Source: a virus. From it: DNA of 64,000 nt. Positions within the stretch are counted from its first letter, which is position 1, and the number at the start of each line of letters is the position of its first letter. Of the stretch, positions 1,046-51,527 are shown piece after piece. Below the pieces are notes generated by a model. The model was not told the origin of the DNA. It saw only the letters and a program-made list of their open reading frames with translations, and searched no databases. The DNA lies in IMG/VR virus record IMGVR_UViG_3300030060_004280, positions 40,995-104,994 of that record; one strand, 5' to 3'. Position numbers and translations under genes: made by a program.

Positions 1046-1632
1046 TATGCTACCCTCCGCGCTACAAAGTCATCTCCATCATAAATTAATCTATTATCGT
1101 CATAATCAACAGGCACTACATGTTCTAAGTGTTCCGGTAAGATTCTCTTGCGGGATATTTGAGGGCGAGTGTGCCATTTCACCTTATCTCGCCCTTGTGC
1201 AAACTCTTTATCTTCTGTTATTTTACCTGCCGGTCGAGTCTTGATGCCTATTATCGCTTTTCTATCTCTTCTTTCATCATCTGTCACTCCACCCCAAGTG
1301 TCTTTGAACCATTCACCCGCTAAAAGAGGATTACCTTGAGTGGACCATTCGCCATGTTCTTCTGCCAAGTCAGCCCATTGTTTATTCGACAATTTGTTTC
1401 TTCCGAAACTCCATATAGCGGGGTCTGTTGAACCTGTGTATCTATCAAGTATATTTTTATCTTGCAGGGAAGAAGGTGCGCGAGGCTCTATGCCCTCCAT
1501 TAATGTCTGTTGAACTGCACTCATTGGAATTGTTCTGTATGCTTGAAATTGGTTGTCATCTTGACTGAATGGCCTTACCCTCATAGCATCGTCACCCTTG
1601 AGAAATACCCAAGCGATTTCTATTGGTGACAT
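1045..1632 (-). CDS. Putative ADP-ribosyltransferase-fold (Tpt1/KptA-like) protein with N-terminal AWxxLK leader
   Basis: AYRTIPMSAVQQTLMEGIEPR resembles the ART-fold opening pattern (LYHGT...l..Il.eGL.P). RKRILPEHLEHV resembles the closing IPPe.I strand. N-terminus is MSPIEIAWVFLKG. Confidence 0.4.
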   Translation of the reverse strand: MSPIEIAWVFLKGDDAMRVRPFSQDDNQFQAYRTIPMSAVQQTLMEGIEPRAPSSLQDKNILDRYTGSTDPAIWSFGRNKLSNKQWADLAEEHGEWSTQGNPLLAGEWFKDTWGGVTDDERRDRKAIIGIKTRPAGKITEDKEFAQGRDKVKWHTRPQISRKRILPEHLEHVVPVDYDDNRLIYDGDDFVARRVA

Positions 1633-3413
1633 TACAATCTTCTCCTTTGTTTTAACGCTTTGACTGTGCCTATTTCATGACCTCTTGCTCTCAACGATTT
1701 GACTTCAAATGGACCCGAAGGTATAGTTCCGCCACTTGGCGCTACTACACTAATGCCCGTAAAGGTAGTGGGTGTTTTGCCGGTATATACTATGGTAATT
1801 GAATCATTAATGATTAACAATCCCTCCGTTTCATAAAATCCTGTTGTGCCGTTACCGGATATAGTTGTTAATGTATTTGTTCCGCTTGAATACACTCCGG
1901 TTCTTCTTTGCGTATAACCGCTACCGATAGCGCTACGAGTGGTGTTATTCGCATCGGTGTTTCTATGACCGATGATAAACCCTGCGTGGATTTCGCCGCG
2001 CACATTGTTTGGTGTTATACTTTCACCCTCGACTGTAAGTGTTCTATCTTTGAACGATGATACCCTGCGCACTTCGATATACATTTTAGATTTAATTTGA
2101 GCGCGACCAATACCTGTCTTGTTAAGTTGCACGATTTGGCTTGACCTATCCGGCTCTTTTGTTTCAGCACTCATATCTGCATCGTCAGCAAACGCGTTAA
2201 TGACACCTTCAAGTCCACTTTCATAAGAAGCGAATTGAAACTCCGACTCTCCGCTTTGAGTATGTTCGACCTCAATAATAGCCATCTTTTCGTCAACTAC
2301 ACCTACTGCTGATTGCGTGTATGATGCAACTTCTCCCGGCTGTAAATCCCAAGAGCGAGCATGTCTTTTTGATTTAAGCGCACCTTGCGCTTTTCGATTT
2401 AATCTCAACAACTGATTCGCTGAACGCCTTGCTTGTATTTCATCTTTGGCTGTTGGCACTTTAACCTTCATTTGTCGAATACTACCTTCTTTCTTTTGTG
2501 CTTCAACATCATCCACCATCGAGCGTATTGTATCGTTTAGCGCAAATGCCTCACCTTCAACAACTATTCTATTTGCGGCGGCAACAATAGGGTCTGTTGA
2601 AGCGCCTCCTGCGCCTCTTCTTTGTCCTATTTCTCTATCAGTAATTTTGAATAATTTAGGAGAGTAAATGAAATTACCAAACCTGTCATGAAAAATACTG
2701 TAATGGTCGTATCTTGCTATTGCGCGAACTGCACTTGGTATTGGTGTTGAATAGAAATCTTTCGCTACAAATGTGTTACTGTGTCGGTTTCTCATATTGT
2801 CGCCACTAATCGAGTTACTGTTAGTGATAGGCATTCCTACTCCAATACTATTCAAACCGTGTAAAGAGCCTTTGAATAATCTTTGAACAAGGTCTGTTGT
2901 TCTTAACCCAACCGACAAAACCTGTGCCATTCTAACATGAGTTGTGTCACCCATGTCGAAATCTTTGAGTTTTTTACCGCGCATATTTGTAAGGACTACT
3001 TCAACACCATAGGTTGATGAGATGATTCTATCCGCTTTCAATCTAAGATTATCGTCATCTGCGTCTATGAGAAGCGGAGCGAATGATGATGTTGGTGATA
3101 ACAACTGTCCGTTATGGAAAGGTGCAGACTTTCTGTTTGTGTGCGCGACTCTAATACCGGATTCTTGTTCTGCGATAATGTATTTGCGCTGATGAGTTGG
3201 CATAAAATCTGTTTGAGTTGGAGGTTTAATTTTTAATTTATTTAGTTTTACATCCCCAATAGATGATATTTCGTATATGCCATGATGAACTGCGTTATCA
3301 ACAAACTTAGGTTCTTCTATACGCGAGCCAATTTCGTTATGAATAGAGTCGCTTCTGCCGGTAGGTCTTGCAACATATGTCGCGTTAGCAGGAGCAGGTA
3401 TAGTGTAAGTCAT
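1632..3413 (-). CDS. Baseplate hub / tail-tip protein
   Basis: 593 aa. Hub-like segments (NRIVVEG...AQKKEG...ARRSANQLL...WDLQPGEV...IIEVEHT). Located directly downstream of the giant tail protein. Confidence 0.55.
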   Translation of the reverse strand: MTYTIPAPANATYVARPTGRSDSIHNEIGSRIEEPKFVDNAVHHGIYEISSIGDVKLNKLKIKPPTQTDFMPTHQRKYIIAEQESGIRVAHTNRKSAPFHNGQLLSPTSSFAPLLIDADDDNLRLKADRIISSTYGVEVVLTNMRGKKLKDFDMGDTTHVRMAQVLSVGLRTTDLVQRLFKGSLHGLNSIGVGMPITNSNSISGDNMRNRHSNTFVAKDFYSTPIPSAVRAIARYDHYSIFHDRFGNFIYSPKLFKITDREIGQRRGAGGASTDPIVAAANRIVVEGEAFALNDTIRSMVDDVEAQKKEGSIRQMKVKVPTAKDEIQARRSANQLLRLNRKAQGALKSKRHARSWDLQPGEVASYTQSAVGVVDEKMAIIEVEHTQSGESEFQFASYESGLEGVINAFADDADMSAETKEPDRSSQIVQLNKTGIGRAQIKSKMYIEVRRVSSFKDRTLTVEGESITPNNVRGEIHAGFIIGHRNTDANNTTRSAIGSGYTQRRTGVYSSGTNTLTTISGNGTTGFYETEGLLIINDSITIVYTGKTPTTFTGISVVAPSGGTIPSGPFEVKSLRARGHEIGTVKALKQRRRL

Positions 3414-3418
3414 GTCAA

Positions 3419-20305: not shown

Positions 20306-20306
20306 A

Positions 20307-24371: not shown

Positions 24372-24725
24372 TCACTCCTGTTCTTGCAACTCTTTCAACT
24401 TATCTATACTCAAACCGAGAGGATTTGGGTCAGTCTGCGGAACAGGAGGTGCGCTACCATCAACAAACTTTGTGTTTGGGTTAAGTTCTTGTATGCGCTC
24501 TTTTGAATCAAATATGTTCGCTATCTCCGGTTTTTGCATTTTATCGCGCGCATGGTTGTTTTTTGCTTCTGTAATGAATTTGATTGCATCTTCACTACTC
24601 ATTTCGGGGAATGATTCTTTCATTGACGCTAACGCTTCTTGCATATTCTTTGACTCTCTCGCTATCAAATCTATGGTGCTAAATCCACCTTTGATAACAG
24701 ACCAAGAAGCGTTAAGAGGGGACAT
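24372..24725 (-). CDS. Hypothetical protein with SPLNASWSVIK leader
   Basis: Probable start MSPLNASWSVIKGG at 24725, just after the upstream stop. Helical and charged. Confidence 0.65.
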   Translation of the reverse strand: MSPLNASWSVIKGGFSTIDLIARESKNMQEALASMKESFPEMSSEDAIKFITEAKNNHARDKMQKPEIANIFDSKERIQELNPNTKFVDGSAPPVPQTDPNPLGLSIDKLKELQEQE

Positions 24726-24727
24726 AC

Positions 24728-25297
24728 TCAACATCCCATCTTTTCACATGTTGAACCATGAGGCTCGCACTTAGGGCAACACTTTGCTTTTTCCTTAATG
24801 ATAGACCACGCGGCGTTAGTTGCCATAGGGTAACCTGTTGCGACAGGAACAGGTTGCTGTTGTTGCGGTTTCTTCTTCTGTTGCATTTGTTGAGATGCCG
24901 CTTGAGTTGGGTGTAATGCTTCGGGGTTTTGCCCTTGATGAACAAATGATGGAGTGTCGAAAACAGACTCTCCTGTTCCGTGTGTGCCGAATGACTGTTC
25001 TTGACCGACACCTTGCATTTGCTGTCCTTCGACACCATGACCGCCGCTTTGACCGCCGTAGGTAATATTACCGCTTCTCATAGCGCCCGGTTGCATTCTT
25101 TCACCTCGTCGGTCCAATCTTTGTCCCATAGTCATTTTGTTTCGGTTATACAAGTTCTCATCACCCATCTCGGCATGCGCTAACGGTTCATACCCGCCTT
25201 GATGATGGACAGCGCTACCTTCACCCGAACCCTGTAAGTTTGGTTTTACATATTCTTTCTTCAATTTATTCCATGCTATGTTTATTATATTATTCAT
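24728..25297 (-). CDS. Low-complexity Gly/Gln-rich protein with two AWxxhK motifs and a C-terminal Cys cluster
   Basis: N-terminal IINIAWNKLKK, internal MATNAAWSIIKE, ends CCPKCEPHGSTCEKMGC. Confidence 0.65.
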   Translation of the reverse strand: MNNIINIAWNKLKKEYVKPNLQGSGEGSAVHHQGGYEPLAHAEMGDENLYNRNKMTMGQRLDRRGERMQPGAMRSGNITYGGQSGGHGVEGQQMQGVGQEQSFGTHGTGESVFDTPSFVHQGQNPEALHPTQAASQQMQQKKKPQQQQPVPVATGYPMATNAAWSIIKEKAKCCPKCEPHGSTCEKMGC

Positions 25298-28497: not shown

Positions 28498-30079
28498 GCG
28501 TCATCACCTCCACATAGCGCGGTAAGGTTTCCGCTACTTGAGCCTTTAGGAGTTGGTATTTTGAACCCAAATCAACATTCTGTGTTCCTTCGGGTAATAA
28601 CACGCTTCGGTCATCGGATAGAATCAAATCCATCGCTACAAGTTTAGTGCATATATCTTCGATTGCTTTTTCCACATAGCGCTCACCATAAACATACGAT
28701 ACCTTAACAGCATTCCATGAGAAATACGGGTATGTGTTATTGAAATAAATGATACCTAAGTCGTAGTCAGCCCACCAATCGCGCAATCGCGCTTCGTCAC
28801 CCGATGTCGAACTTACATAATCAATCTTGAATCGGTTTTGATGCACGATAGCGTCAGTTGTAGCCGCCGCACTTATGTCACCTGTAAGGTCGGCAACACC
28901 TGTCAGTTGGTTACCTGTTTTACCTGTGTAGTAACCAACTGCTGAACCTATCTTGATAAGACCATATTCAGCAAAAGGTGATGCATCAACTAAAGTTATT
29001 TCAGTCGCGGTTGAACTTGCTACTTTACCTTGAAAAGAATTACAACCTGTAATGTCGATACCCTCTTCGTTTGTTATAGCAATTGTAGCGGTTTCTCCTG
29101 CATCGCCTCGACGCATGGATGTTATCTTGATTTGACCGCCACCGTAGTCATTGTTAGCAGAAGACATAAACTCATGATGAACATTTGCTACAACTGAACC
29201 ATCATCTGCTTGCGCATCTTCAAGACTAAACGATGGAGAAAATGTAATTGCTTCTTTACCACGCCTCAAATCCTTATTGATAAGGTCGGATAATTGTTGC
29301 GCGGTTGTAACATTATCAAATTGAGCATTAAACTTTGATTTGTTAGTTCCTGCTGTGAGAGTGGCGACACCGCCACCACCCGGACAAAGATACACCGCGT
29401 CTGTATCTGCTGTCAATTTAGTAAAATCAAGAACTTTCAAACGCACTTCTGCGGTAGCAATCTCTCTATATTCATGTCCTTGCCATACTTCAAGTCGAAG
29501 TATTTGTTGAACATTACGGAAATATAGCGGAACTGAACCAACATAATCTGTATAGTATCTTCTTCTGTATGGCTTGTATGTATCGAAGTTGACATATTCT
29601 GCCGTCTGTAACATAGGTCGCCATGAGTTGTTAGTAAGATTGTCAATTTTATCTTGAGTGCGCAGAATAAGAGTTTCAACTTGTTTCTTTGTAACACCTT
29701 TGCGCTTACCGTTTGTGAATGATTGTAGCGGTTGAACATATGCGTTATCGGCAGTATCGTAATCTCCTGTAAGGCCACCAACCCATGTTAGTATAACATT
29801 GCTACCATCGCGCGAAACATTAGTTAGTGTTACTTCTTCACCCATTTCAACATCGCTTGCAATCTCAATCTTATCACCGATTTCAAATCCGGTATGTCTG
29901 TAATCACTTGCTGAAATTGTAGCGGTAGTAGCGCTTGTGTTAGAGTCACTTACAAGATAAACAGGGTCGGGTAGCGGTATCTGTAATATGTCCGCTACTT
30001 TTTGCGCAGTAGTGTAGTATAAGCGCGTAGGGTCAAGTGGTCTTGGCGCTCTTTCTCCTGTTTGGAAAACTGTCGGCAT
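28490..30079 (-). CDS. Head-tail adaptor (gp6/gp15-like) with inserted domains
   Basis: YYTTAQKVADIL...LILRTQDKIDNLTNNSW...VKVSYVYG...AIEDICTKLVAMDL are adaptor hallmarks. Expanded to 529 aa. Confidence 0.65.
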   Translation of the reverse strand: MPTVFQTGERAPRPLDPTRLYYTTAQKVADILQIPLPDPVYLVSDSNTSATTATISASDYRHTGFEIGDKIEIASDVEMGEEVTLTNVSRDGSNVILTWVGGLTGDYDTADNAYVQPLQSFTNGKRKGVTKKQVETLILRTQDKIDNLTNNSWRPMLQTAEYVNFDTYKPYRRRYYTDYVGSVPLYFRNVQQILRLEVWQGHEYREIATAEVRLKVLDFTKLTADTDAVYLCPGGGGVATLTAGTNKSKFNAQFDNVTTAQQLSDLINKDLRRGKEAITFSPSFSLEDAQADDGSVVANVHHEFMSSANNDYGGGQIKITSMRRGDAGETATIAITNEEGIDITGCNSFQGKVASSTATEITLVDASPFAEYGLIKIGSAVGYYTGKTGNQLTGVADLTGDISAAATTDAIVHQNRFKIDYVSSTSGDEARLRDWWADYDLGIIYFNNTYPYFSWNAVKVSYVYGERYVEKAIEDICTKLVAMDLILSDDRSVLLPEGTQNVDLGSKYQLLKAQVAETLPRYVEVMTLE

Positions 30080-30306
30080 TAGACTTCACTCCTTCTTGCT
30101 TGCTCTTCTCGCAGTTGCGCTTCTAATTTATCCGCTTCTGCTCTCTTCTCTTCTATGAGTCTTCTTAACTCATCAAAATGAGGCGCGTATTCTTGCGCTC
30201 CCTGTTCGATTTGTTGTCGTTGCTGTTCTCGCTTCGCTTGCTCTTCTGCGAGCATTCTGCCAATTTCAGCAGGGTCATTTTTGAGAAGAAGAATCCATTT
30301 CATCAT
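30079..30306 (-). CDS. Small coiled-coil protein
   Basis: 75 aa, Glu/Gln/Arg-rich helix; starts MMKWILLLKND; ATGA overlap with the upstream gene. Confidence 0.6.
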   Translation of the reverse strand: MMKWILLLKNDPAEIGRMLAEEQAKREQQRQQIEQGAQEYAPHFDELRRLIEEKRAEADKLEAQLREEQARRSEV

Positions 30307-31846: not shown

Positions 31847-32998
31847 TCATTGTAGGTCGCGAATTGAACCGCTTGCACCAAAGAAACTACCCCATAGTTC
31901 ACCCATAGTTCGGTAAAGTCCTTCCTGTCCGAGCCTGTTAATCGCGAATGGGTCACCTGTTTCAATACCACTTTCAAAGTATTGTGTTGGAATTGCGGTT
32001 TGGAACCACAAGTAGTCAGTATCAAGATAATAGATACGGGATAGAGAACTTGCACCTTCGTCCGGCATATCCTTTGTTGGGATAATTGGAACTCCGTTGT
32101 AAGTTGCTACAATAAATCCTGCTTCGATACCCGGAACACCCTTCACACCGGAATAGGTAGGGGTGATTCTCTTAGAATCCATGAATCTTTGTTGAGATTG
32201 CAACAGTTGTTGAGCGCGCATAAGCGTATCATATCCTGTTAGCATAACCTTTGGATTACCACCGCGAGTCCAAATCTGTTGGAATAGACCATCAAGTTGG
32301 TTTAGCGATAGGTTTCTCTTATTGTTTGCATCTGTTGATACATCAACTTCTGCGCTATGGAAATCTTTTGTTCCGTCGCGAGTAATAGAATACATATCGT
32401 GCTTAGTTAGCGAAGTAGTAATGTGGTTTGTTCCTGTTGTCATCTTGTCCGGGTCGGATGTGAGTCTGTCAAGTGACTCAAAGTTGTTACCGGCAGTTGT
32501 GTCAACATCAACAAGAAGCATCTTGTTAATCATTTCAGCGTGATGCTTACCCATTTCTTCTTTTAGAACCTGTCTAACATCGCCAAGTCCATCATCCTTA
32601 TCGGATAGGAACATGCTTACTTCGGATAGGTCGAAGGTGTGCGCGATAGTCTTAGGCTTAGCCGCTACATGCAGGAACTCCGGTCTTTTGGTTTCCGGTA
32701 GTGTTCCATTTTCTGCGATACCACCGCTAACGCCGGATTCAGCGCGCTCGGTGAGGATTCTCCATCCACTTCGCTCCCACGGTTTCTTAGGAAGAATTGA
32801 AAACGCGTTAAACTCTTGGTTTAACTGCGACCATACTTTACGGCCATAAACCGCTTGATATGTTCCTGCGGTTGTTGACATAAGTGGGCTGTCTGCCTTC
32901 AAAATGTCGCCGCTTGAGTAGGTGTAGCCTGTTTGAGCCGCACCACCGTAGTAGTATCTTTCCATGTCTTGAACTGTTCTTACATAATTTCGTGCCAT
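31847..32998 (-). CDS. Major capsid protein (HK97 fold)
   Basis: Probable start MARNYVRTV at 32998, after GGGAGAGTGA. Follows the protease. HK97-type pattern (KPKTIAHTFDLS...EMGKHHAEMINKMLL...ATYNGVPIIPT...IYYLDTDYL...GSIRDL). Confidence 0.9.
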   Translation of the reverse strand: MARNYVRTVQDMERYYYGGAAQTGYTYSSGDILKADSPLMSTTAGTYQAVYGRKVWSQLNQEFNAFSILPKKPWERSGWRILTERAESGVSGGIAENGTLPETKRPEFLHVAAKPKTIAHTFDLSEVSMFLSDKDDGLGDVRQVLKEEMGKHHAEMINKMLLVDVDTTAGNNFESLDRLTSDPDKMTTGTNHITTSLTKHDMYSITRDGTKDFHSAEVDVSTDANNKRNLSLNQLDGLFQQIWTRGGNPKVMLTGYDTLMRAQQLLQSQQRFMDSKRITPTYSGVKGVPGIEAGFIVATYNGVPIIPTKDMPDEGASSLSRIYYLDTDYLWFQTAIPTQYFESGIETGDPFAINRLGQEGLYRTMGELWGSFFGASGSIRDLQ

Positions 32999-33003: not shown

Positions 33004-34416
33004 TCACTCTCCCCTCAATGCTTTGTCGGCCATGCGGTGAACTTCGTCCCACGACATGTTTGCCATTTCCGTAGTATCGGGAATTGTAATTGATGTGGTT
33101 GAAGCACTCTTAGTAAGAGTTTCTCCACCACCGGATGAAACGCGACTGATTCTTTCATCAAGCGCTACAACTGCTTTTTGCAATTCAAGAAGAGGTTTGC
33201 GGGAGTCAAAGTTTGCTCGCGCTTTCTCATTCTTTGCGATTCGCTGTTCTTTAGAAAGTCTGTCAGCGAAGTAGTCACCGAGAGAACCTTTGAATTGTTG
33301 CTCAACGGATGCCGCCTTATAGACTTCGTAAGCCGCTTCAATGTCACTTTGAGAAACATTTTCGGGCATAATAAAATCGCTCTTAATTACATTCTTGTTA
33401 CCGGATGGTGCGCTACCAAAGTTTTGCTTTGGTCGCTTGCCGGAATCATCTTCGCCCGCACCTTCAAGAGAACCTTGTCCTCTATGGTCGTAGCCGGATT
33501 GTCCCGGTCCATATCCTTTATTCACGCTGTCGAAGTGTGCGCGAGCATCAGCAATGTCGTGTCCTTGACTCTTTGCTGTTTGCTCAAGCCAATTCAAATA
33601 GTCCATTGTTATCATATCATCTGCTTTTGCTGTCATGTCATCACCATACATCATATCGTCGTCCTCATCATCCTCTTCATCCTCTTCTTCATCGTCAAGG
33701 TCAAGTTTAGGTTTGGACTCTTTCTTTTTGTCACCGAATGGGCCGGGGTCGCCGTCACCATCCGGGTCAAGTTGTGGAGGCATGCCTTTGTCAGCATCCT
33801 CGTCTTTCTTTTTCTTATCATCTTCTTCATCATCGAGTTTTTTCGATAGTCGTTCTAATACATTCTGTAATTCTGTCATAGGGTCGCTCATGGTATCACC
33901 TGTGTCCTCCTTGAGAATCCTAAATTGTGCTTCGGGGTTGATACCCTTCTCGCAAATAGTTACCTCATGGAGTTCCATACGACGGATTTCACGGTAATCA
34001 CCGCGAGTAGCGTCGCTCTTGTTAACACGCTCAAAGGCTTGACCGCCTATTGAGAATGACCGAAGGTTGCCCTTGCGGATTTCGGATGCAACTTCGCGGG
34101 CTTTTTCAATATCGCCGCGTAGTTTAATCACAACAAACATGCCGGTATCATCCACTTCGGATTTCCATACACGGCCATTGCTATCTGTGTAAGAAGGTAT
34201 TACCGTTCCTACTTGAATATTGGAGTGCGCAAGTTGAACATTGCGGAATCCATCTGCTTTCATAAATCCACTAAACGCATCTTTCAAAGCGCTACGGGTA
34301 ATTAGGTCGCCTTGCTTGTCGACCATTTCAACCGATGCATAACCTGCAACTACCAAATCGTCACCGAACCCCTTGAGAACAAGAGGGTTAGATTGAGAAG
34401 GTGCAAGAATTGCCAT
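33004..34416 (-). CDS. Prohead protease (HK97/U35-like) fused to acidic scaffolding domain
   Basis: VAGYASVEMVDKQGDLI...LAH...LRSFSIGG...LHEVTICEKGINPEA, followed by an Asp/Glu-rich region and coiled coils. Confidence 0.9.
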   Translation of the reverse strand: MAILAPSQSNPLVLKGFGDDLVVAGYASVEMVDKQGDLITRSALKDAFSGFMKADGFRNVQLAHSNIQVGTVIPSYTDSNGRVWKSEVDDTGMFVVIKLRGDIEKAREVASEIRKGNLRSFSIGGQAFERVNKSDATRGDYREIRRMELHEVTICEKGINPEAQFRILKEDTGDTMSDPMTELQNVLERLSKKLDDEEDDKKKKDEDADKGMPPQLDPDGDGDPGPFGDKKKESKPKLDLDDEEEDEEDDEDDDMMYGDDMTAKADDMITMDYLNWLEQTAKSQGHDIADARAHFDSVNKGYGPGQSGYDHRGQGSLEGAGEDDSGKRPKQNFGSAPSGNKNVIKSDFIMPENVSQSDIEAAYEVYKAASVEQQFKGSLGDYFADRLSKEQRIAKNEKARANFDSRKPLLELQKAVVALDERISRVSSGGGETLTKSASTTSITIPDTTEMANMSWDEVHRMADKALRGE

Positions 34417-41772: not shown

Positions 41773-43626
41773 TTAAAAACCGCTTTCTTGGTTCTTACTT
41801 GTAGGGTCTTTAGCGGCTTCAACAGCGTCAAGAGCCTGTTCAGTTACCGTTTTTTCCGAGCCGCGCTGATTCTTTTTTGAAGTGGGTGCGCCACTCAAGT
41901 GCGTTTCCGAACTAAGAGGCGCGGGTCCATTATCGCGCTGTCCTGTTCCTTCACCAAGTCCCATAGCGCCGCCCTTTTCCATCATCATGATAGCCTGTCC
42001 GCCTCCCGATGCTCCGCCTTGAGGCGGTAGCCCCCCGCCGCCTTGAGGAATCATTGCACCGCCCGGAGGTGTCCCTTGTTGTGGTGGCGGCATAGGCATA
42101 CCGCCGCCGGGAGTTGGAGGTGGCATTCCACCCGGAGGCGGCGCTCCACCCGGAGGCGGCGCTCCACCTGCACCACCGGCAGGAGGTTGTTGAGGTTGAG
42201 GGTCGGGCTTCTTGTAAGTGAATCGTATATCTCGCCCTGCATCTTCGGTTAATTCCGGTTGGAAACCAAGCGCTTGCATACGCTGTGCAATATTGACTTC
42301 TTGCTCATCGCGTCGTAGTCTTGTAACATCATCCTCTTCTTCGTTAGGGTAAAGAGTCAATTCCCATTCGTCGACACCCATTTCTTTCAATAGGCGCGGG
42401 AATAGATTTTTTGCATATATTTTCTGTCCGTATTCAACAGCACGATTAGTGACAAGAATCTGCATACCCTCATTGTTGAGTCCGCCGGACTTACCTGCGT
42501 CCATCATAAAGATACTCGATACACCATAAAATGCCGCTATACGCATTCTTACTTCATCACGAACCTGCGCGTATTGCATTTCATCAAGGCTATCCATGAA
42601 GCGCACAAACTCAACTTTACCTCGACCGGATGCTGATTCTATACCAACTTTCGGAATATAATGAGGGTCGCGTTCCATCTTCTCTTCTGCGCCTTTCCAA
42701 AACGATGCAGTTGATTGAATGTTATCAGTAGTGATTGCGAGAACACCACGCGGTATTCTTCGCTTTTGATATGCAAGGTAAATGTAATTATCCATAGCGG
42801 TAAGAGTTTGGGCTTGCCTCCACATTGTAGCGACAGGACTACGCCCATACAATTTAGAAGGATTAAACTTACTTGTGTGAATAATTTCACCATCAATGTA
42901 ATACTGCGTTTTACCACTACCTGCGGTGTTGATGTAGTGAACATCTTGTAATGGTAGCGAGCAAACTTCACACTTTTTATGGTCGCCATTGTGAGGGTAT
43001 GTTCTGTCACGATGAACAGGGCATATGAGATACCTGCCACCTCTTGCTCCGCGCTTATCAGCAACTATCCTCATGAAAGTTGGGTCACCACGCATAACTT
43101 CTTTAATTCGGAAAAACTCTATACCGCCGCTATCGGGGTCAATGAAATACTCTTTGATAAGAATAAGGAATGCATCATCAACAATGTCTAAATCCCATTC
43201 TATTTCACGCATAACATCCATAAAAGATTGGTCCATGCTGTTGCGTTGGTCTAACAACCAACGAGGATAAAGAACTTGGTCTGCGCTTGGGCTTTTGAAC
43301 TCTTCATTACCGCATATTCGACATTCTGCAACGGTATCATGATTGTATTCTTCGCCACAATTGGTGCATTTTTTGTGAAACTTTTTTTGCCAATAATGGC
43401 CGCGCCTAAATATTTCTTGACATAGTGTGTTAATTGTAGTTCTCAAAACAACTGATTCTTGAACAGTTGCATATAGCGCGGGAATGCTTACACCTTGAAC
43501 AAGAACAGGCTCTTGAATACCACTTTTCCAAAGCGGCATAATTGGTTCGGGTGTAGTTCTGCGACGGAATGGTTTTGACAAAGACGACAAGAATCTGCCG
43601 ACTACACCTTTCTTTTCTTCAACCAT
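41773..43626 (-). CDS. Portal protein with Zn-finger insertions and Pro/Gly-rich tail
   Basis: Portal hallmarks (SFMDVMREIEWDLDIVDDAFL...EIIH...LYGRSPV...EMQYAQVRDEVRMRIAAFYGVS). Cys pairs CTNC/CRIC and CPVH/CEVC. Downstream of TerL. Confidence 0.85.
   Translation of the reverse strand: MVEEKKGVVGRFLSSLSKPFRRRTTPEPIMPLWKSGIQEPVLVQGVSIPALYATVQESVVLRTTINTLCQEIFRRGHYWQKKFHKKCTNCGEEYNHDTVAECRICGNEEFKSPSADQVLYPRWLLDQRNSMDQSFMDVMREIEWDLDIVDDAFLILIKEYFIDPDSGGIEFFRIKEVMRGDPTFMRIVADKRGARGGRYLICPVHRDRTYPHNGDHKKCEVCSLPLQDVHYINTAGSGKTQYYIDGEIIHTSKFNPSKLYGRSPVATMWRQAQTLTAMDNYIYLAYQKRRIPRGVLAITTDNIQSTASFWKGAEEKMERDPHYIPKVGIESASGRGKVEFVRFMDSLDEMQYAQVRDEVRMRIAAFYGVSSIFMMDAGKSGGLNNEGMQILVTNRAVEYGQKIYAKNLFPRLLKEMGVDEWELTLYPNEEEDDVTRLRRDEQEVNIAQRMQALGFQPELTEDAGRDIRFTYKKPDPQPQQPPAGGAGGAPPPGGAPPPGGMPPPTPGGGMPMPPPQQGTPPGGAMIPQGGGGLPPQGGASGGGQAIMMMEKGGAMGLGEGTGQRDNGPAPLSSETHLSGAPTSKKNQRGSEKTVTEQALDAVEAAKDPTSKNQESGF
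42128..42168. repeat. 18-bp tandem repeat encoding GAPPPG in the portal tail
   Basis: ccacccggaggcggcgct x2 plus a partial copy. Confidence 0.8.
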
Positions 43627-45062
43627 TAAATCAGCCTCTCTATGCGGTGAATGTCGTCGACGAGCCGTATAACTTCATTGTCGCGCTGTCCCCATGCAAG
43701 AACTTCTGCCTCATCAACTTTCCACTCTCGGAGCAATTTATCACGCTCTTCGGGAACATCTTTCCAATTTTCCCACTTCACTATACGATATAATTCTTCT
43801 CTTCGTGATTTAACAAGGTTGCTTTTAGACCCTCTTAAATCGAGTAAATGCAATACTGCGTTGGCTTGATTCTTTTTCATTTGTAAATGAGGCGTTATAC
43901 CTTTGAGTAATTTGCGCAAATCATCAGCACCATAAAACTGCAAACGATGTTGTGTGCGCTTACTATTCTTGTGTATTTTCAAATCAGTCTGTAACACTCC
44001 GCATCCAAGCGACTTATGCAATTGCTCACAATGCAACTTGCCCCTACCCCCTGTCGCTACAAACCCTGCTCTTGGTTCTCCGCGTTTTGTGATTGTGATA
44101 TACCCGTCAGCATCGAGAAATCCTGCGGCATAAGCCCATATATCTTTGACAATTACAGTATCGTCTTGTATGATTCCATAGTTAGTGCCTATCTTTTCAA
44201 TATCATATTCGACACCATGCATCTTCAACAAAGATGCCATTTTTCTAATAGTTAGATGTTTAGGTGAACCTATTGAATTGTATATTTCATTTGAAGATAG
44301 TGGACCTCTTTCTATAAGAATGTCTGCTGAACGCGTAAGCCATATTGCTTCTTGTTTCTTTATGTCGTCTATCGGATGCAATGTCTTTCTCCATTGGGAT
44401 TTGGCATCCTTTCTCATTTGTCTTGAATCAAGCCATAATTGCAATTGGTCTTGGTTAAAGTCACCTTCTATTTGAGATAATTTAGTAATTACATCGTTAG
44501 CCTTCTCCCACATAGCGCATGCTCTTCGCAAAGACATTTCCTTTGTCACGCCATGTTTTCTCAAAGCGTGTAAGTTTCTATCGGAAACTCCAAGAGCGCG
44601 TATAGATGATAAGTGCTTATTAGCCCACGGTATAGATTTCAATGTTGATTCAACCTCTTCTTTTTTCGCAATTCGTATAGCGTCTATGGCAAGGTCTATG
44701 TCTTCTCGCATATCTTTTCTATCGCGTCGCGCCATTCGCAACTCCTTCACCATTGATTCTGCATCTTTTCCAAACATTGATTGAAACCAACCATTGTGAG
44801 GCATAGCGCTTTTGAGTTGTTGCGTAGGTTGAACTGATTGTTGTTGCGCTACCACTTCTTGTATTTTCTTTTTCTCTTTATCCTGTTCCATCGCATCGGG
44901 TTGAGATGGGGTTGTTGGTGCGGATAATTCACCTTCTCCTTGTGACTGTGTTTTAGGAGCATCGCCCATATTTGGATTTGCTACTGTTCCTGTTGCTTTA
45001 CGCAGAATGGCATCTATTTCTTCATCCCTAAGAATAGAGCCGGTCCACATTAACAATTCCAC
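43626..45062 (-). CDS. Protein with helical N-terminus, HTH-like segment and C-terminal single LAGLIDADG domain
   Basis: WAYAAGFLDADGYITI...LRKLLKGITPHLQMKKNQANAVLHLL is the classic single-motif LAGLIDADG pattern. LSSNEIYNSI...TIRKMASLLK is HTH-like. Confidence 0.75.
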   Translation of the reverse strand: MELLMWTGSILRDEEIDAILRKATGTVANPNMGDAPKTQSQGEGELSAPTTPSQPDAMEQDKEKKKIQEVVAQQQSVQPTQQLKSAMPHNGWFQSMFGKDAESMVKELRMARRDRKDMREDIDLAIDAIRIAKKEEVESTLKSIPWANKHLSSIRALGVSDRNLHALRKHGVTKEMSLRRACAMWEKANDVITKLSQIEGDFNQDQLQLWLDSRQMRKDAKSQWRKTLHPIDDIKKQEAIWLTRSADILIERGPLSSNEIYNSIGSPKHLTIRKMASLLKMHGVEYDIEKIGTNYGIIQDDTVIVKDIWAYAAGFLDADGYITITKRGEPRAGFVATGGRGKLHCEQLHKSLGCGVLQTDLKIHKNSKRTQHRLQFYGADDLRKLLKGITPHLQMKKNQANAVLHLLDLRGSKSNLVKSRREELYRIVKWENWKDVPEERDKLLREWKVDEAEVLAWGQRDNEVIRLVDDIHRIERLI

Positions 45063-45463
45063 CTTTTCAAAGCCGCGCCTTTCGGAGTCAATTTACCGCC
45101 TTTACTTGTTGGTCCTTTCACTCCACCCATTCTCGCACAAAACGATTTGCGCCTTTTTGCTTTTTTACCACCGGGTTTCAACTTACTCGGTTTAGTTGTA
45201 ACCGGAGGTTTTAGATTCGCGCCGCTTTTTCGCTTTGCGGCGGCTCGACCTTTAGCGTTCAATCCACCTTTACGGCTGTGTTTATTTGGATTGTAACCAT
45301 GAAACGGCTTGCTTTTCTTTTTGGCTTTGAGAACTTCAAGAGCAACTTGAACAGGTGAGCAACAATCACAAAATGTAACCTCTTTTGCTATATCGCTATC
45401 ATTCATCATCGCTAACTCTTCTGCCGTTATTGGCTCATGTTCTATGTATTCGTATTCTGTCAA
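45050..45463 (-). CDS. Basic phage protein (DUF6321-like) with acidic leader
   Basis: GGLNAKGRAAAK...NLKPPV...RRKSFCARMGG...ALKRWNC is a pattern I recognise from marine phages. Preceded by SPVQVALEVLKA. Confidence 0.6.
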   Translation of the reverse strand: MTEYEYIEHEPITAEELAMMNDSDIAKEVTFCDCCSPVQVALEVLKAKKKSKPFHGYNPNKHSRKGGLNAKGRAAAKRKSGANLKPPVTTKPSKLKPGGKKAKRRKSFCARMGGVKGPTSKGGKLTPKGAALKRWNC

Positions 45464-48541: not shown

Positions 48542-50328
48542 GACGCTTTGATAATGTCAACCACATCGCGCCCTACTTGAAAATGTTCCGCTACTTTCGA
48601 CCAATCTCCAATACTCATAGCAATAGCGCGAACATCTGTTGATTCAAGGTCAAGTTGTTTCGCTAAAACTATCATATGGTTTCGATTATGAGGATTTAGA
48701 TTAGTATATTGAACGCTTTTCATTATTTGCGCGTTTTCCCATGTGTCGTGCATTTGCACTCTTTCCATAACTGCGGCGATAGCGCCCATCGGGTCGTCAA
48801 AAGAAGTCATAAAATTATCATCTTGTTGATTACGCATTGTTGTCGTCCCTTCGGGCGCAAATGGGTCATTCGCTGATGGACCCGCGCCAAGATTAGGGTC
48901 ATTCAAAGGTGGACCACCACCTACACCTGCGGGTGGTAATTGTTGATTTTCCATCATTGGGTCATAATCTCCTACACTAATATGGTCGGGTAATTGGTCG
49001 TGAAGGTGTCCTAACTCATCTGTTATTCTGCCATGCATTTCATGATGCTCTTGAGCAATACCCATGTTCATCAAATCAACAGGTCTGCCTCCTTGTTGTA
49101 TAGCGAATGATTTCCAACCGCTAATAACTGATGCCGGAGGTTTTGAAATACCAAGCGCGGGTGTAATATCAACCCCTAACTCTTCTGCTGTTTTGAGAGT
49201 AGCCAATATTCTCTTCGCCGCGTCTGTTCTGCCTCTATCAGCACCACCAATTCTCCCGTCAAAGTGACTTCTATGCTTATGATACATGTCCGCTATGGTG
49301 TTATCTTTGTTTTGACCGTCTATACCAATGTATGTCTGTATTCGATTGACGATATTATTGAGTTGAGTGGCTGAACCCTTTTTGCCTCGACCCATAATTA
49401 ACTGTGCGGCGGGTGCGCGAGCCATTGCTTCTGCTCTTCGCGCTGATACACCTTCTCTAACTAACGCATTTATCACTTGTAGCGGTGGCCTACCCTTTGA
49501 AGTAGGAACAAAAAACGCATCCGGTAAAGATGCGATAATATCAGCAGGTCTTATCTGCCCGTATTGGGTTTTTTCATTATATTTTTCCGAGCCATATTCG
49601 GGAAAATGGTGATTATCTTTACTTGTTGGGTCTTTCATGTTACTGCTGTATCTTTCAAGAAGGCTTCTCATTCTGTATGAACCATCAGCCATCTTTTCGG
49701 GTGCGCGAACTATATGTTGAGGCTCAAGAACATTTTGCCTCGCTCCTAAATCGCTTTCAACGCCTAACGCTTGTATAATTTTACGGAACTCTTTTTCAAA
49801 ATGGAACGCTCCCGACTCAAGGAAACGACCGAGAGTGTTATGTCTAACGCTATTATAGTGCAAATTGATGAGTTGACCCTTTGAATCTCGCGTTTTTCTT
49901 GCAGAAGTTGGAACATTTCGTGCTTCGTGTTGCCCGTAATGATTACTTTTGTATTCGGGATGCAAATTACCGTTCTCATCAAAGGGAATTGGCACAGTAT
50001 GAAAGTTATCACCTTCGTTTCTTTTAGTCCTGTTGAAGTCGATAGCGGCTTTATTCATGATTTCTTTAGCCTTTTGTAGCGCTAAATTACCCGGAAACAT
50101 TTGCCTTAACTTTTTATTTTCTGCAAGATACCTTGCCGCCGCCTCCATAGGCCAATGACGCATGTTATCGGGTATCTCTTTGTGCGGTTTCCCTGTTGAA
50201 TGGTCTATATGAAAATGTGACATTTCTTTATGCGGTGAACTCGGATGAGGAAATGACATTGGAATCAATTTACCTCCTGCTCCGCGCTTATACACACCTT
50301 TTCCCTTGATGATATTATCATTCATCAT
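48520..50328 (-). CDS. Hypothetical 602-aa protein, possible C-terminal HTH
   Basis: Long ORF coupled to both neighbours; His-rich; C-terminus DWSKVAEHFQVGRDVVDIIK. Confidence 0.65.
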   Translation of the reverse strand: MMNDNIIKGKGVYKRGAGGKLIPMSFPHPSSPHKEMSHFHIDHSTGKPHKEIPDNMRHWPMEAAARYLAENKKLRQMFPGNLALQKAKEIMNKAAIDFNRTKRNEGDNFHTVPIPFDENGNLHPEYKSNHYGQHEARNVPTSARKTRDSKGQLINLHYNSVRHNTLGRFLESGAFHFEKEFRKIIQALGVESDLGARQNVLEPQHIVRAPEKMADGSYRMRSLLERYSSNMKDPTSKDNHHFPEYGSEKYNEKTQYGQIRPADIIASLPDAFFVPTSKGRPPLQVINALVREGVSARRAEAMARAPAAQLIMGRGKKGSATQLNNIVNRIQTYIGIDGQNKDNTIADMYHKHRSHFDGRIGGADRGRTDAAKRILATLKTAEELGVDITPALGISKPPASVISGWKSFAIQQGGRPVDLMNMGIAQEHHEMHGRITDELGHLHDQLPDHISVGDYDPMMENQQLPPAGVGGGPPLNDPNLGAGPSANDPFAPEGTTTMRNQQDDNFMTSFDDPMGAIAAVMERVQMHDTWENAQIMKSVQYTNLNPHNRNHMIVLAKQLDLESTDVRAIAMSIGDWSKVAEHFQVGRDVVDIIKASCLEALT

Positions 50329-51527
50329 GATATTCCGCCCCTTCTAACATACAACCCATAAGCATGCGCGCCCCACATTGTAGGGTCATCTTCGGGGTCT
50401 GCTTCTGTTGCACCTGTTGGCGCAGAAGTCATGCGGCGATGAGCGTTAGGTGTCGGTCCATCCGGTGCAGGGTCAAGCGATGCATCCGCTTTTCGCGTTA
50501 AACCTCTCAATAACTTCTCAAGTTTTTGAATTAGACGACGATATTCTTGTTTATCTCGCATCGTCATACCTTTAGCAAGTAGCGCGGCGAAAGGTGATGA
50601 ACCACCCATCGCTAAGTCAGTAGCCTTTGAGTGTTCTGCACCCATTGGAGTGTCGGGTTTTCTCGGCGTGTGTGTTTTCTTTGGTCCTTTAGTCGCGTCC
50701 CTGTGTTCAGCCGTTCCTCTTGGTGCATGAGCAATTCGCGATTCGGGCAATTCTGTTGGAATTGAAGGAGTAACAGGTTGAGTTGGCATAGAACCCGATA
50801 TTTCTGCTCTTCTTGCTTCGGATTCGCGAGCGCGGGGTGAACTCATCATAGCGGGAGGACCCGAACGCATAGATGCTGTTGTAAGATAATTGGGAGTGGT
50901 GCGAGTTTGCCTACTGTATTGCATTGAAGGTTGAGTAGCCCTATGTGATGCGATAACTCCGGTATATTTACCCGGATTACGACCTGTATCAACTCTTAGA
51001 GGGTTACCTGCTTTGCGTTTGCGGGTCTTTTTCTTAGAATCTATTGTTTTAGTTTTCTCTTTACGACTCTTACGACCCTTTTCAGCGCGCTGTCTTGCGC
51101 GAACTGTGTCTATTGTAGTAGTTTTCTTAGGCTTTTCCCTGTCGTATTTTGGCGCGTCTTTTTTTTTAATTACATCAAAAGCCAAATCCATAGGTTCGCC
51201 GGTCATAACACCCATACCTAACCCATTACCTTGTGGATTAGCGCCCGGAACAACCTCGCTTTGCCCCACTTGACCCATTTGACCGGCTTCTTCTTGAAGT
51301 CGCTCTTCATCTTCTTTGTTTTGCTGTGGTATTTTGATTTTCAAATGCTGAATACCTTGCAATAATCGAGCGCGTTTCTCTTGCTCATTCTGTTTTTTAG
51401 CGTTATGCTTGGCGCGCTCTTCGGAATCTTCACGCCCTACCGAAGAATCTTCTTCGATTTCTTCTGCGCTTTGGCGTGGATTGAACCGCAAATTACCTGC
51501 GCTACCCGAACCATCTCCCATCGGCAT
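50325..51527 (-). CDS. Disordered basic protein with internal PMDLAFDVIK motif
   Basis: 400 aa; acidic N-terminal part, then a Lys/Arg-rich part that begins right after EPMDLAFDVIKK. Confidence 0.65.
   Translation of the reverse strand: MPMGDGSGSAGNLRFNPRQSAEEIEEDSSVGREDSEERAKHNAKKQNEQEKRARLLQGIQHLKIKIPQQNKEDEERLQEEAGQMGQVGQSEVVPGANPQGNGLGMGVMTGEPMDLAFDVIKKKDAPKYDREKPKKTTTIDTVRARQRAEKGRKSRKEKTKTIDSKKKTRKRKAGNPLRVDTGRNPGKYTGVIASHRATQPSMQYSRQTRTTPNYLTTASMRSGPPAMMSSPRARESEARRAEISGSMPTQPVTPSIPTELPESRIAHAPRGTAEHRDATKGPKKTHTPRKPDTPMGAEHSKATDLAMGGSSPFAALLAKGMTMRDKQEYRRLIQKLEKLLRGLTRKADASLDPAPDGPTPNAHRRMTSAPTGATEADPEDDPTMWGAHAYGLYVRRGGIS

What the first reader, a model, noticed from the sequence alone, without database searches (positions are those of the whole stretch)
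1597..51200. Recurrent P-h-x-x-A-W-x-h-h-K leader on unrelated proteins: candidate capsid-targeting/processing signal for a cargo system
Seen: MSPIEIAWVFLK-G (1632), MSPLNASWSVIK-G (24725), IINIAWNKLK-K (25297), MATNAAWSIIK-E (internal, ~24800-24830), MKWILLLK-N (30306), SPVQVALEVLK-A (~45325-45360) and EPMDLAFDVIK-K (~51165-51200). What follows the Lys differs each time: ART-like domain, helical domain, G/Q-rich region, Cys cluster, coiled coil, DUF6321-like domain, basic tail. Several of these genes interrupt the conserved tail gene order like morons. Knowledge: T4 internal proteins use a short N-terminal capsid-targeting sequence removed by the prohead protease, and HK97 protease cuts after Lys. 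Inference: a portable amphipathic tag that loads interchangeable cargo into the prohead and is then clipped, i.e. a modular effector-injection system. I know of no description of it in archaeal viruses.
Basis: partly seen in the sequence, partly recalled or inferred. Interest (0 to 1): 0.8.

Follow-up and report, generated by a model that had tools for sequence, protein, structure and literature searches.

The report
Portable address tag on magrovirus proteins
An abundant ocean virus of archaea (a magrovirus) attaches the same 11-12-residue helical peptide ending in lysine to well over a hundred unrelated, fast-changing accessory proteins encoded among its head and tail genes. The peptide is most likely an address label that loads them into the virus particle, but neither loading nor cutting has been shown.

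Summary
The window holds four strong tags: g41, g33 and two in g32. It also holds three degenerate ones (g14, g10, g27), which orthologues support as members.

Across 2.3 Mb of related IMG/VR contigs I found 323 distinct instances of [M/G]-[N/E]-P-[MLIF]-[DEN]-x-A-W-x-h-L-K.
- They precede at least 125 unrelated cargo families, almost all without a Pfam hit.
- They sit almost only on the late, structural gene strand and in the non-conserved "moron" ORFs.
- Every synonymous codon is used, so selection acts on the protein.
- The strict DNA pattern gave one chance hit in 596 Gb of cellular genomes.

The tag is not only a leader: about 49% are N-terminal, 44% internal and 7% C-terminal. Its conserved ends read as helix caps.

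My best reading is a position-independent docking helix that recruits swappable accessory proteins into the virion, probably the prohead. Some cargos have an ADP-ribosyltransferase (ART) fold, and one is a basic DUF6321 protein. Cleavage after the Lys by the S78 prohead protease is possible but unproven.

The three magrovirus papers I checked do not mention it. This scan had already noted the same tag in another window of this genome and in at least eight other magrovirus genomes.

The parts
1597..1632 (-). Tag of g41 (MSPIEIAWVFLK), at the N-terminus
   Evidence: (matrix score 29.5).
1045..1596 (-). Cargo of g41, 183 aa. An orphan protein, possibly ART-like.
   Evidence: No Pfam or PHROG hit. 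Only one 86%-identical relative among 5.8 billion proteins. The nearest named ESM Atlas clusters are DarT/PARP, Arr-ms and Tox-ART-HYD1 at 0.90-0.91, which is a lead only. hhalign to tagged 'type B' cargos gives 78% probability, partly owing to the tag itself. AF2 failed with pLDDT 33.
24690..24725 (-). Tag of g33 (MSPLNASWSVIK). The true start is probably the Met at 24725.
   Evidence: (score 25.9).
24372..24689 (-). Cargo of g33, a 105-aa helical orphan. It belongs to a 6-member tagged family in relatives.
25259..25297 (-). N-terminal tag of g32 (MNNIINIAWNKLK). It lacks the Pro.
   Evidence: (score 21.7).
24830..25258 (-). First cargo module of g32, rich in Gly and Gln
   Evidence: No Pfam hit.
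24794..24829 (-). Internal tag of g32 (PMATNAAWSIIK)
   Evidence: (score 22.3).
24728..24793 (-). Second cargo module of g32, a 21-aa Cys cluster. In relatives such as G001 the same kind of module is a separate ORF with its own N-terminal tag.
30280..30306 (-). Shortened tag of g27 (MMKWILLLK)
   Evidence: Not significant alone. Orthologues carry the full tag MNPFDIAWSILK before the same NDP.EI..ML cargo. No hidden tag lies upstream. The short form is conserved in L001.
30079..30279 (-). Cargo of g27, a coiled-coil-like protein. Its family was the largest tagged cargo family (16 members) in the first clustering.
45326..45358 (-). Degenerate internal tag of g14 (SPVQVALEVLK; Trp replaced by Leu)
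   Evidence: Validated by the orthologue in G001, which scores 17.2.
45050..45325 (-). Cargo of g14, a very basic DUF6321 domain
   Evidence: Pfam PF19846 at 5.3e-15. Untagged homologues lie between the scaffold and capsid genes of marine podoviruses.
51165..51197 (-). Degenerate internal tag of g10 (EPMDLAFDVIK), between an acidic N-terminal part and a basic C-terminal part
   Evidence: score 10.9; orthologues.
50325..51527 (-). g10, a 400-aa protein conserved in the related genomes compared. It is the only conserved late gene in the window with a tag-like site.
33004..34416 (-). Prohead protease (S78) fused to a scaffold-like C-terminal half. Candidate processing enzyme and candidate receptor.
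   Evidence: PF04586 at 3.2e-9; PHROG head maturation protease at 1.8e-15. Sequence.
31847..32998 (-). Major capsid protein, HK97-like (real start MARNY...). It is 70-93% identical across all tag-bearing relatives and is a candidate receptor.
41773..43626 (-). Portal protein (context). At 77% identity to G002 it is the second most conserved late protein.

Best explanation
The motif is a self-contained, capped amphipathic alpha-helix of about 10 residues. Asn/Glu-Pro-x-Asp forms the N-cap, Met/Ala/Trp/Leu/Leu form the hydrophobic face, and Lys followed by Gly/Ala forms the C-cap.

It serves as a portable docking (address) peptide. It works at the N-terminus, between modules, or at the C-terminus of a protein. 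I infer that it binds one highly conserved viral receptor, most likely the inside of the prohead (HK97-fold capsid protein, protease-scaffold or portal). A fast-changing set of late-expressed accessory proteins would thereby be built into the virion and enter the next host with the DNA. These include ART-fold enzymes, HD and GNAT enzymes, zinc-ribbon mini-proteins and basic DNA-binding-like proteins.

Genes gain the function by acquiring the tag, and neighbouring tagged genes fuse and split at tag boundaries. The S78 prohead protease may cut after the Lys, but the model does not need that.

Shown here: the tag exists, is portable, is selected as protein, and is restricted to late variable genes of this virus group. 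Inferred: the helix structure, docking, the capsid as destination, and delivery.
For: (1) Recurrence far beyond chance.
- In 1.25 Mb there are 139 matrix hits on the gene strand and 1 on the other.
- In 2.3 Mb there are 323 distinct instances.
- In the window there are 4 hits scoring 15 or more, against 0 in shuffles.

(2) Portability.
- 265 cargo modules fall into 125 BLAST clusters, 88 of them singletons.
- Only 6 of 125 representatives have a Pfam hit.
- DUF6321 exists untagged in pelagiphages and cyanophages.

(3) Selection at the protein level.
- There are 312 distinct 33-nt sequences.
- All synonymous codons are used at the conserved Pro, Ala, Leu and Lys.

(4) Sharp borders. Information content is 1.2-4.7 bits from -11 to 0 and at or below 0.9 bits from +1 onward.

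(5) Late, variable genes only, in three near-complete relatives.
- 25 of 173 late-strand ORFs are tagged, against 1 of 136 on the other strand (p = 4e-6).
- 24 of 85 non-conserved late ORFs are tagged, against 1 of 88 conserved ones (p = 9e-8).

(6) Specific to the virus.
- The strict DNA pattern gives 1 internal chance hit in 596 Gb from 185,579 cellular species, against 20 in 0.95 Mb of capsid-anchored loci.
- All 9 long tag-bearing contigs tested carry a capsid protein 70-74% identical to the window's.

(7) Position-independent. There are 158 N-terminal, 142 internal and 22 C-terminal tags, and the C-terminal ones are as canonical as the N-terminal ones (median score 25.6 against 27.5).

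(8) Cargo that fits delivery.
- An AF2 model of a tagged YYHGT family hits only ART-fold chains (KptA/Tpt1, PARPs, PltA).
- T4 packages and injects the ART Alt (own knowledge), and its ~10-residue capsid targeting sequence loads foreign proteins such as GFP into the head core (PMC9958956).
- Untagged DUF6321 homologues lie between the scaffold and capsid genes of podoviruses.

(9) Fusion and fission at tags. The Cys-cluster module is fused in g32 but is a separate tagged ORF in G001 and L126.
Against: - No experiment or structure links the tag to any receptor.
- The capsid as destination rests on gene position, late co-orientation and analogy.
- The tag does not match the shared C-terminal scaffold tail of this genome (MSW[DE][ED][VI]H.MA; matrix score below 2), so it does not obviously use the scaffold's coat-binding mode.
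- Tagged genes are spread over head, tail and fibre regions rather than clustering by the capsid gene.
- Many cargos look disordered or acidic, which is not typical of known internal head proteins.
- The ART-fold match is marginal (best E 9e-4, TM about 0.3, model pLDDT 59).
- HVTV-1, the closest cultured relative by capsid protein among the phage records searched, has no tag in its structural region. A related head can therefore be built without it.
Confidence: 0.5

Rival explanations
1. This is the first reader's version: a T4-style cleavable leader. The tag targets cargo to the scaffold core, and the S78 prohead protease always cuts right after the Lys (P1 = Lys). That would release mature cargo and cut polyproteins into their modules.
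For: - The Lys is almost invariant: 306 of 312 codons are AAA or AAG.
- Conservation stops exactly after it.
- Position +1 is small or polar. Bulky hydrophobics number 13 against 83 expected.
- Pro is nearly excluded at +1 (1 of 321) yet enriched at +2 and +3. In a regex-defined set, which is independent of the +1 column, the figure is 3 of 213.
- An S78 protease is encoded. The HK97 protease cuts after Lys103 (own knowledge).
- The capsid protein has a conserved ..ILK|AD.. junction that aligns with ..MSK|AD.. in HVTV-1.
- Multi-tag ORFs look like polyproteins, with up to 5 tags and a median spacing of 160 aa.
Against: - 22 tags lie 0-8 residues from the stop, are fully canonical, and are conserved across contigs. 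A cut after Lys would achieve nothing there.
- After such a cut, internal tags would stay on the upstream module, so the tag must work uncleaved as well.
- The start and end preferences, including the +1 residue, are equally what helix caps look like.
- The specificity of this protease is unknown.
- The paper with N-terminal sequences of HVTV-1 virion proteins was not available.
Confidence: 0.3
2. The tag is a docking or targeting helix for something other than the capsid interior. Candidates are:
- the host membrane or a virus-made membrane compartment (a membrane-targeting amphipathic helix, perhaps linked to the Arf-like GTPase operon at 52914-56195);
- the tail;
- a host hub such as a chaperone, the proteasome or the replication machinery.
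For: - The peptide is a short amphipathic helix with Trp and Lys and works at either end of a protein. By my own knowledge, membrane-targeting sequences of MinD, FtsA and SepF behave the same way.
- Tagged genes are scattered through the tail and fibre regions as well as the head region.
- The HVTV-1 structural region scanned has no tag.
Against: - Conservation is residue-specific (near-invariant Pro, Ala, Trp, Leu, Lys) rather than merely physico-chemical. That points to one protein receptor rather than lipid.
- The net charge is only about 0 to +1.
- No host proteins carry the strict form of the tag, so no host sorting signal of that form is being copied.
- Proteins that act early on the host but are encoded in late structural operons are most simply explained by packaging.
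Confidence: 0.17
3. There is no targeting function. The peptide would be inherited from one ancestral small gene by duplication and recombination, or would be a nucleic-acid or translation element at gene starts.
For: - Half of the tags are at gene starts.
- Tagged genes cluster and turn over quickly, as in duplicating gene arrays.
Against: - All synonymous codons are used at the conserved residues.
- Internal and C-terminal tags are equally conserved.
- Cargos show no detectable similarity to each other, yet the 11 tag residues stay near-invariant across genomes whose other late proteins are only 35-60% identical.
Confidence: 0.03

Closest known systems
Capsid targeting sequence (CTS) of phage T4 internal proteins IPII/IPIII, and the packaged ART Alt
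   Same: - A peptide of about 10 residues is shared by otherwise unrelated proteins made late.
- It is portable: fused to GFP it loads GFP into the head core (PMC9958956).
- A prohead protease is present.
- An ART is among the cargo.
   Different: - There is no sequence similarity (own knowledge of the T4 CTS; not tested here).
- The T4 CTS is strictly N-terminal and is removed at L/I-x-E. The magrovirus tag is also internal and C-terminal, ends in Lys, and sits on more than 100 families rather than a handful.
- The host is an archaeon, and the protease is of the S78 (HK97) type, not the T4 gp21 type.
Encapsulin targeting peptides (cargo-loading peptides)
   Same: - Short peptides at the C-terminus, sometimes the N-terminus, of diverse cargo.
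- They dock in a pocket on the inside of an HK97-fold shell.
- No cleavage is needed (PMC8346489).
   Different: - The consensus differs: SDGSLGIGSLKRS-like and extended, against the helical P-M-D-x-A-W-x-L-L-K.
- Encapsulins are cellular compartments with one or a few cargos. Here the shell is a DNA-filled virus head with dozens of cargos per genome.
- Binding to the shell is untested here.
Encapsulation peptides of bacterial microcompartments (Pdu, Eut, carboxysome)
   Same: A short amphipathic helix sits at either end of the cargo, is joined by a poorly conserved linker, and is portable (own knowledge).
   Different: - The shell fold is unrelated (BMC-H/T/P).
- Those peptides are conserved only as a hydrophobic pattern, whereas this tag is conserved residue by residue.
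Phage-borne polymorphic effectors: MuF-toxin fusions and the phage P1 Dar anti-restriction proteins
   Same: A conserved trafficking or packaging element is joined to rapidly swapped enzyme domains. These are built into the head and delivered with the DNA (own knowledge; P1 is discussed in PMC9024508, listed).
   Different: - The conserved part there is a whole domain (MuF) or a long N-terminal region, not an 11-residue helix.
- No MuF domain was seen on tagged proteins here.
N-terminal LNLQxFA motif of staphylococcal phage 80alpha capsid and scaffold proteins, cut by the host protease Prp
   Same: A short N-terminal motif is shared by several phage head proteins and is removed during assembly (own knowledge).
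   Different: That motif copies a host signal on ribosomal protein L27. The strict form of the magrovirus tag gave only one chance hit, in a Flavobacteriaceae MAG, across 185,579 cellular genomes.

Membership tests
T4-type capsid targeting sequence / internal proteins | A short peptide shared by otherwise unrelated late proteins | tested here: met
   323 instances on at least 125 unrelated cargo clusters.
T4-type capsid targeting sequence / internal proteins | Strictly N-terminal position | tested here: not met
   158 N-terminal, 142 internal and 22 C-terminal.
T4-type capsid targeting sequence / internal proteins | Removed by the prohead protease at its consensus site | not testable with these tools
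   Only indirect hints are available: an invariant Lys, a small +1 residue and Pro excluded at +1. An S78 protease is present.
T4-type capsid targeting sequence / internal proteins | Tagged proteins are found inside the virion | not testable with these tools
   No cultured magrovirus and no proteome data were available.
T4-type capsid targeting sequence / internal proteins | Sequence homology to the T4 CTS | not tested
   No T4 sequence was fetched. From memory the peptides are unrelated.
Encapsulin targeting peptide system | Shell protein with the HK97 fold | tested here: met
   The capsid protein hits SU10_MCP (3.2e-7), Phage_capsid, and the PHROG major head protein (6.8e-53).
Encapsulin targeting peptide system | Terminal peptide of either polarity on diverse cargo | tested here: met
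   N-terminal and C-terminal tags are equally canonical.
Encapsulin targeting peptide system | GSL-type consensus (SDGSLGIGSLKRS) | tested here: not met
   The consensus here is P-[MLIF]-[DEN]-x-A-W-x-h-L-K, against the published consensus.
Encapsulin targeting peptide system | The peptide binds a pocket on the inner face of the shell | not testable with these tools
Polymorphic toxin/effector cassettes (MuF-type) | Variable C-terminal enzyme or toxin domains behind a constant trafficking part | tested here: met
   Cargos include an ART-fold family, HD_4, GNAT, zinc-binding and DUF6321 domains. 88 of 125 clusters are singletons.
Polymorphic toxin/effector cassettes (MuF-type) | MuF or another known trafficking domain | tested here: not met
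   No such Pfam domain on 125 cargo representatives or 10 large C-terminally tagged proteins.
Any curated protein family covering the tag itself | A Pfam or PHROG model matching the tag region | tested here: not met
   No hit over the tag in g41, g33 or g32.
ADP-ribosyltransferase fold (cargo of g41) | An ART fold or an ART motif triad in g41 | tested here: inconclusive
   - The ESM Atlas nearest named clusters are all ART families, at 0.90-0.91.
- hhalign to tagged 'type B' cargos gives 78% probability.
- The AF2 model is unusable at pLDDT 33.
- There is no Pfam hit.

The most novel reading that the evidence does not exclude
Magrovirus heads may work like loaded encapsulins. A residue-specific, position-independent cargo-loading helix would dock into the HK97-fold shell or its scaffold. 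That would let the virus pack, and inject with its DNA, a freely exchangeable arsenal of dozens of orphan effectors per genome. These could be single genes or tag-punctuated polyproteins, drawn from more than 100 families across the group. It would be an archaeal-virus counterpart of polymorphic effector delivery, and a functional bridge between virus capsids and encapsulin cargo loading.
Probability: 0.35. Interest if true: 0.85.

Novelty: new variant of a known kind. Interest (0 to 1): 0.72.

Why it matters
Magroviruses are among the most abundant archaeal viruses in the surface ocean, but none is cultured and most of their genes are unannotated.

- **A handle on the dark genes.** One sequence rule picks out about 10-15 modules per genome, roughly a quarter of the variable late ORFs, as a single functional class. 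That makes them tractable as a class.
- **If the label is a virion address.** It would define the set of proteins the virus delivers into Poseidoniales cells, among them ART-fold enzymes. It would also be the first cargo-addressing system described for an archaeal virus.
- **A possible tool.** An 11-residue peptide could be used to load foreign proteins into an HK97-type capsid.
- **Testability.** The idea can be checked with a few recombinant proteins or with existing virus-fraction metaproteomes.

Tried and rejected
- **Chance.** Rejected by shuffles, the strand control and the codon analysis.
- **DNA or RNA element.** Rejected because all synonymous codons are used.
- **Copy of a host signal.** No support was found. 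The strict pattern gave one internal chance match, in a Flavobacteriaceae glycosidase-like ORF, in 596 Gb. Only the MNPM..AW..LK form was scanned.
- **Own genome.** None is held for this window.
- **Relatives of g41.** A pattern scan of IMG/VR found none. The protein search found a single 86%-identical relative. The AF2 model was therefore useless (pLDDT 33), and the 'ART-like' label for g41 remains a lead only.
- **Function of cargos by Pfam.** 6 of 125 representatives had a hit. None of 10 large C-terminally tagged proteins did.
- **Resemblance of the tag to the scaffold tail** (a lead from earlier notes). In this genome the shared tail MSW[DE][ED][VI]H.MA of g21 and g18 scores below 2 on the tag matrix and has different hydrophobic spacing, so I did not use it.
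- **The protease N-terminus ..NP[LIV][LIV]LK|G**. It looks tag-like, but it may simply be the first strand of the protease fold. I left it open.
- **Mature N-terminus of the HVTV-1 capsid protein.** This would test cutting after Lys, but the paper (J Virol 2013, PMC3592136) is not held.
- **The tag in HVTV-1.** None was found in the 41-kb structural region.
- **A profile search of protein databases for the bare tag.** Not run. About 32 bits of information cannot reach significance against 1.8 billion proteins.

Full report
**What the window is.**
All long ORFs lie on the minus strand. Pfam and PHROGs identify the following:
- a large terminase (45460-46860);
- a portal (41773-43626);
- an S78 prohead protease fused to a scaffold-like half (33004-34416);
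- an HK97-like major capsid protein (31847-32998);
- a tail tube protein (25302-27776);
- a tape measure (21506-23269).

Among the phage records searched, the best-matching cultured viruses are the haloarchaeal siphoviruses HVTV-1, HCTV-1 and HCTV-5, at 31-33% identity. This matches the published description of magroviruses (PMC5434244). No whole genome is held for the window.

**The observation.**

I built a position matrix from relatives and scanned the window.
- Four sites score 21.7-29.5: the g41 N-terminus, g33, the g32 N-terminus and a g32 internal site.
- Nothing reached 15 in shuffled proteins or on the opposite strand.
- g10 is borderline at 10.9.
- g14 and g27 are not significant alone.

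Orthologues rescue the three weak sites.
- The G001 orthologue of g14 has TPFEISMAILK in front of the same DUF6321 domain.
- g10 orthologues keep an A-F-x-h-[IL]-[KR] version.
- g27 is a shortened member of a family that otherwise begins MNPFDIAWSILK.

**How widespread it is.**
- In 80 loci anchored on the capsid gene, which are therefore unbiased with respect to the motif, a simple regex gave 139 hits on the gene strand and 8 on the other.
- The matrix gave 139 against 1 in 1.25 Mb.
Most hits were genuine tags in contigs that share genes with the window.
- All nine long tag-bearing contigs I tested carry a capsid protein 70-74% identical to the window's.
- Pooling everything gives 323 distinct instances.
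- The consensus is [M or G/S]-[N/E/T]-P-[MLIF]-[DEN]-x-[A/s]-W-x-[LVIF]-L-K. Information content is 1.2-4.7 bits from -11 to 0 and falls to background at +1.

**What kind of signal it is.**
The conserved Pro, Ala, Leu and Lys use every synonymous codon, and 312 of the 323 instances have distinct 33-nt sequences. Selection therefore acts on the peptide, not on DNA or RNA.

By established helix-capping rules, N/E/T/S-P-x-[D/E/N] reads as an N-cap box with Pro at N1. Lys followed by Gly, Ala or Asn reads as a C-cap. In a helix, Met(-8), Ala(-5), Trp(-4) and Leu(-1) line one face, flanked by the residues at -6 and -2. Asp(-7), Arg(-3) and Lys(0) line the other face. AF2 draws the tag as a helix, but at low confidence. 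The helix reading is an inference.

**Where the tags sit.**
I fetched three near-complete relatives whole: G001 (103 kb), G002 (107 kb, with terminal repeats) and G003 (91 kb). At matrix scores of 12 or more they carry 9, 13 and 15 tags.
- All tags but one lie on the late strand. The exception is a plus-strand ORF inside a tagged minus-strand block of G003.
- 25 of 173 late-strand ORFs are tagged, against 1 of 136 on the other strand (p = 4e-6).
- Among late ORFs, 24 of 85 without a window homologue are tagged, against 1 of 88 with one (p = 9e-8).
- 28 of 33 capsid-anchored loci with at least 8 kb downstream of the capsid gene have one or more tags there.

**Specific to the virus.**
- The strict pattern for MNPM..AW..LK occurs once in 596 Gb from 185,579 cellular species. 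That hit lies inside a Flavobacteriaceae ORF, and about two chance hits were expected.
- The same pattern occurs 20 times in 0.95 Mb of capsid-anchored magrovirus DNA. No host signal of this form is being copied.
- HVTV-1 has no tag in its 41-kb structural region.
- Three magrovirus papers do not mention such a motif.

**Cargo.**
- 265 modules of at least 40 aa fall into 125 BLAST clusters, 88 of them singletons.
- Only 6 of 125 representatives have a Pfam hit: DUF6321, Phage_zn_bind_8, HD_4, DUF3293, DUF1192 and a GNAT.
- Ten large C-terminally tagged proteins have none.
- 25 cargos are Cys-rich mini-proteins of 80 aa or fewer.
- One sub-clade has a second conserved 19-residue segment straight after the tag (RQT.LGEFHPD.PS..GPV). 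It is followed by unrelated cargos.
- Among those is a YYHGT...GAFVT...GVRE family. Its AF2 model (pLDDT 59, core 62-85) hits only ART-fold chains: KptA/Tpt1, PARP10/14/15, tankyrases and PltA. The best E-value is 9e-4 and TM is about 0.3.
- For g41 itself the ART idea stays a lead.
- DUF6321, the cargo of g14, occurs untagged as very basic proteins of 79-85 aa. They lie between the scaffold and capsid genes of pelagiphage HTVC131P and Prochlorococcus phage P-SCSP2, among other tiny Lys-rich ORFs. That context suggests a head-associated protein.

**Position and modularity.**
- 158 tags are N-terminal, 142 are internal, and 22 lie within 0-8 residues of the stop. One further tag is both N-terminal and within 8 residues of the stop.
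- C-terminal tags are as canonical as N-terminal ones (median score 25.6 against 27.5). Some are conserved on proteins of about 420 aa in several contigs.
- ORFs carry up to five tags, with a median spacing of 160 residues.
- The Cys-cluster module fused into g32 is a separate tagged ORF in G001 and L126. Genes therefore fuse and split at tag boundaries.

**Cleavage.**
- In favour: the invariant Lys, the sharp drop in conservation after it, and a small +1 residue.
- Also in favour: Pro is almost excluded at +1 (1 of 321, or 3 of 213 in a set defined without the +1 column) but enriched at +2 and +3.
- Also in favour: a conserved ..ILK|AD.. junction in the capsid protein aligns with ..MSK|AD.. 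of HVTV-1.
- Against it as the defining function: C-terminal tags are canonical, internal tags would remain on the upstream module after a cut, and helix capping explains the same preferences.
- I could not obtain the paper reporting N-terminal sequences of HVTV-1 virion proteins.
- I put cleavage after the Lys at about 0.3.

**Conclusion.**
The tag is a genuine, portable, virus-specific peptide selected at the protein level. It marks a class of late accessory modules.

Two reference systems frame the interpretation.
- The T4 capsid targeting sequence is a peptide of about 10 residues that loads even GFP into the head core (PMC9958956).
- Encapsulin targeting peptides are terminal peptides of either polarity that dock inside an HK97-fold shell (PMC8346489).

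The magrovirus tag behaves more like the second in its freedom of position, and more like the first in its context: a DNA virus with a prohead protease and ART cargo. I therefore favour a docking helix that loads accessory proteins into the virion (0.5). A non-capsid destination is the main rival (0.17).

Earlier notes of this scan reached a similar reading, for another window of this genome and for at least eight other magrovirus genomes. I treated them as leads only.

Noticed in passing
window 33004-33060 and 41040-41110 (minus strand; C-termini of g21 and g18): The protease-scaffold fusion and a separate 115-aa protein end with the same helix motif, MSW[DE][ED][VI]H.MA. This is a second shared peptide, probably the coat-binding scaffold tail. 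It does not match the AW..LK tag matrix.
   Followed up: partly
L164:3747-4322:-, L125:8944-9782:+ and other members of alignment A2: In one sub-clade the tag is followed directly by a second conserved 19-residue segment, RQT[TE]LGEFHPD[LF]PS[PS][YH]GPV. After it come at least three unrelated cargo types. Its role (linker, second docking site or processing site) is unknown.
   Followed up: partly
L222:3673-4162 (pelagiphage HTVC131P) and L223:3190-4168 (Prochlorococcus phage P-SCSP2): Arrays of tiny, extremely Lys/Arg-rich ORFs, including DUF6321, lie between the scaffold and capsid genes of marine T7-like phages. They may be DNA-condensing internal head proteins and appear to be unannotated.
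   Followed up: no
window 32890-32998 (capsid protein N-terminus): The first 34 residues of the capsid protein end in ..SGDILK|ADSP.., which is invariant in the 62 distinct sequences recovered from relatives and aligns with ..GGMSK|ADNL.. (K102) of HVTV-1. This is a candidate maturation site.
   Followed up: partly
window 34360-34416 (protease N-terminus): Protease orthologues have a variable segment of about 10 residues followed by a conserved [DNES]-P-[ILV]-[ILV]-L-K-[GS]. It looks like a half-tag but could be the first strand of the S78 fold.
   Followed up: partly
window 3419-20320, 34444-40689 and 56287-63684 (minus strand): There are three giant ORFs of 5633, 2081 and 2465 aa. The 2081-aa ORF sits between the portal region and the protease, where HVTV-1 has a 1313-aa protein annotated 'zeta toxin'. 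None of the three carries a tag.
   Followed up: no
window 23912-24367 (minus strand): A 151-aa acidic protein with a SAP DNA-binding domain (PF02037, 5.8e-14) lies in the tail module, next to the tagged genes g32 and g33.
   Followed up: no
window 43626-45062 (minus strand): A 478-aa protein between the terminase and the portal has an HNH-endonuclease-like segment (PHROG 5046, 1.3e-10). HVTV-1 also has HNH genes flanking its terminase.
   Followed up: no
L087:3826-3993:-, and L121, L141, L145, L153, L167: A widespread tagged mini-protein family reads LK|[AG]K[KE]DAPNYR...CGNCK.W...G.C.WYDF.C....CDAW. Its KDAPxY start resembles the residues right after the g10 tag (KKKDAPKYD).
   Followed up: no
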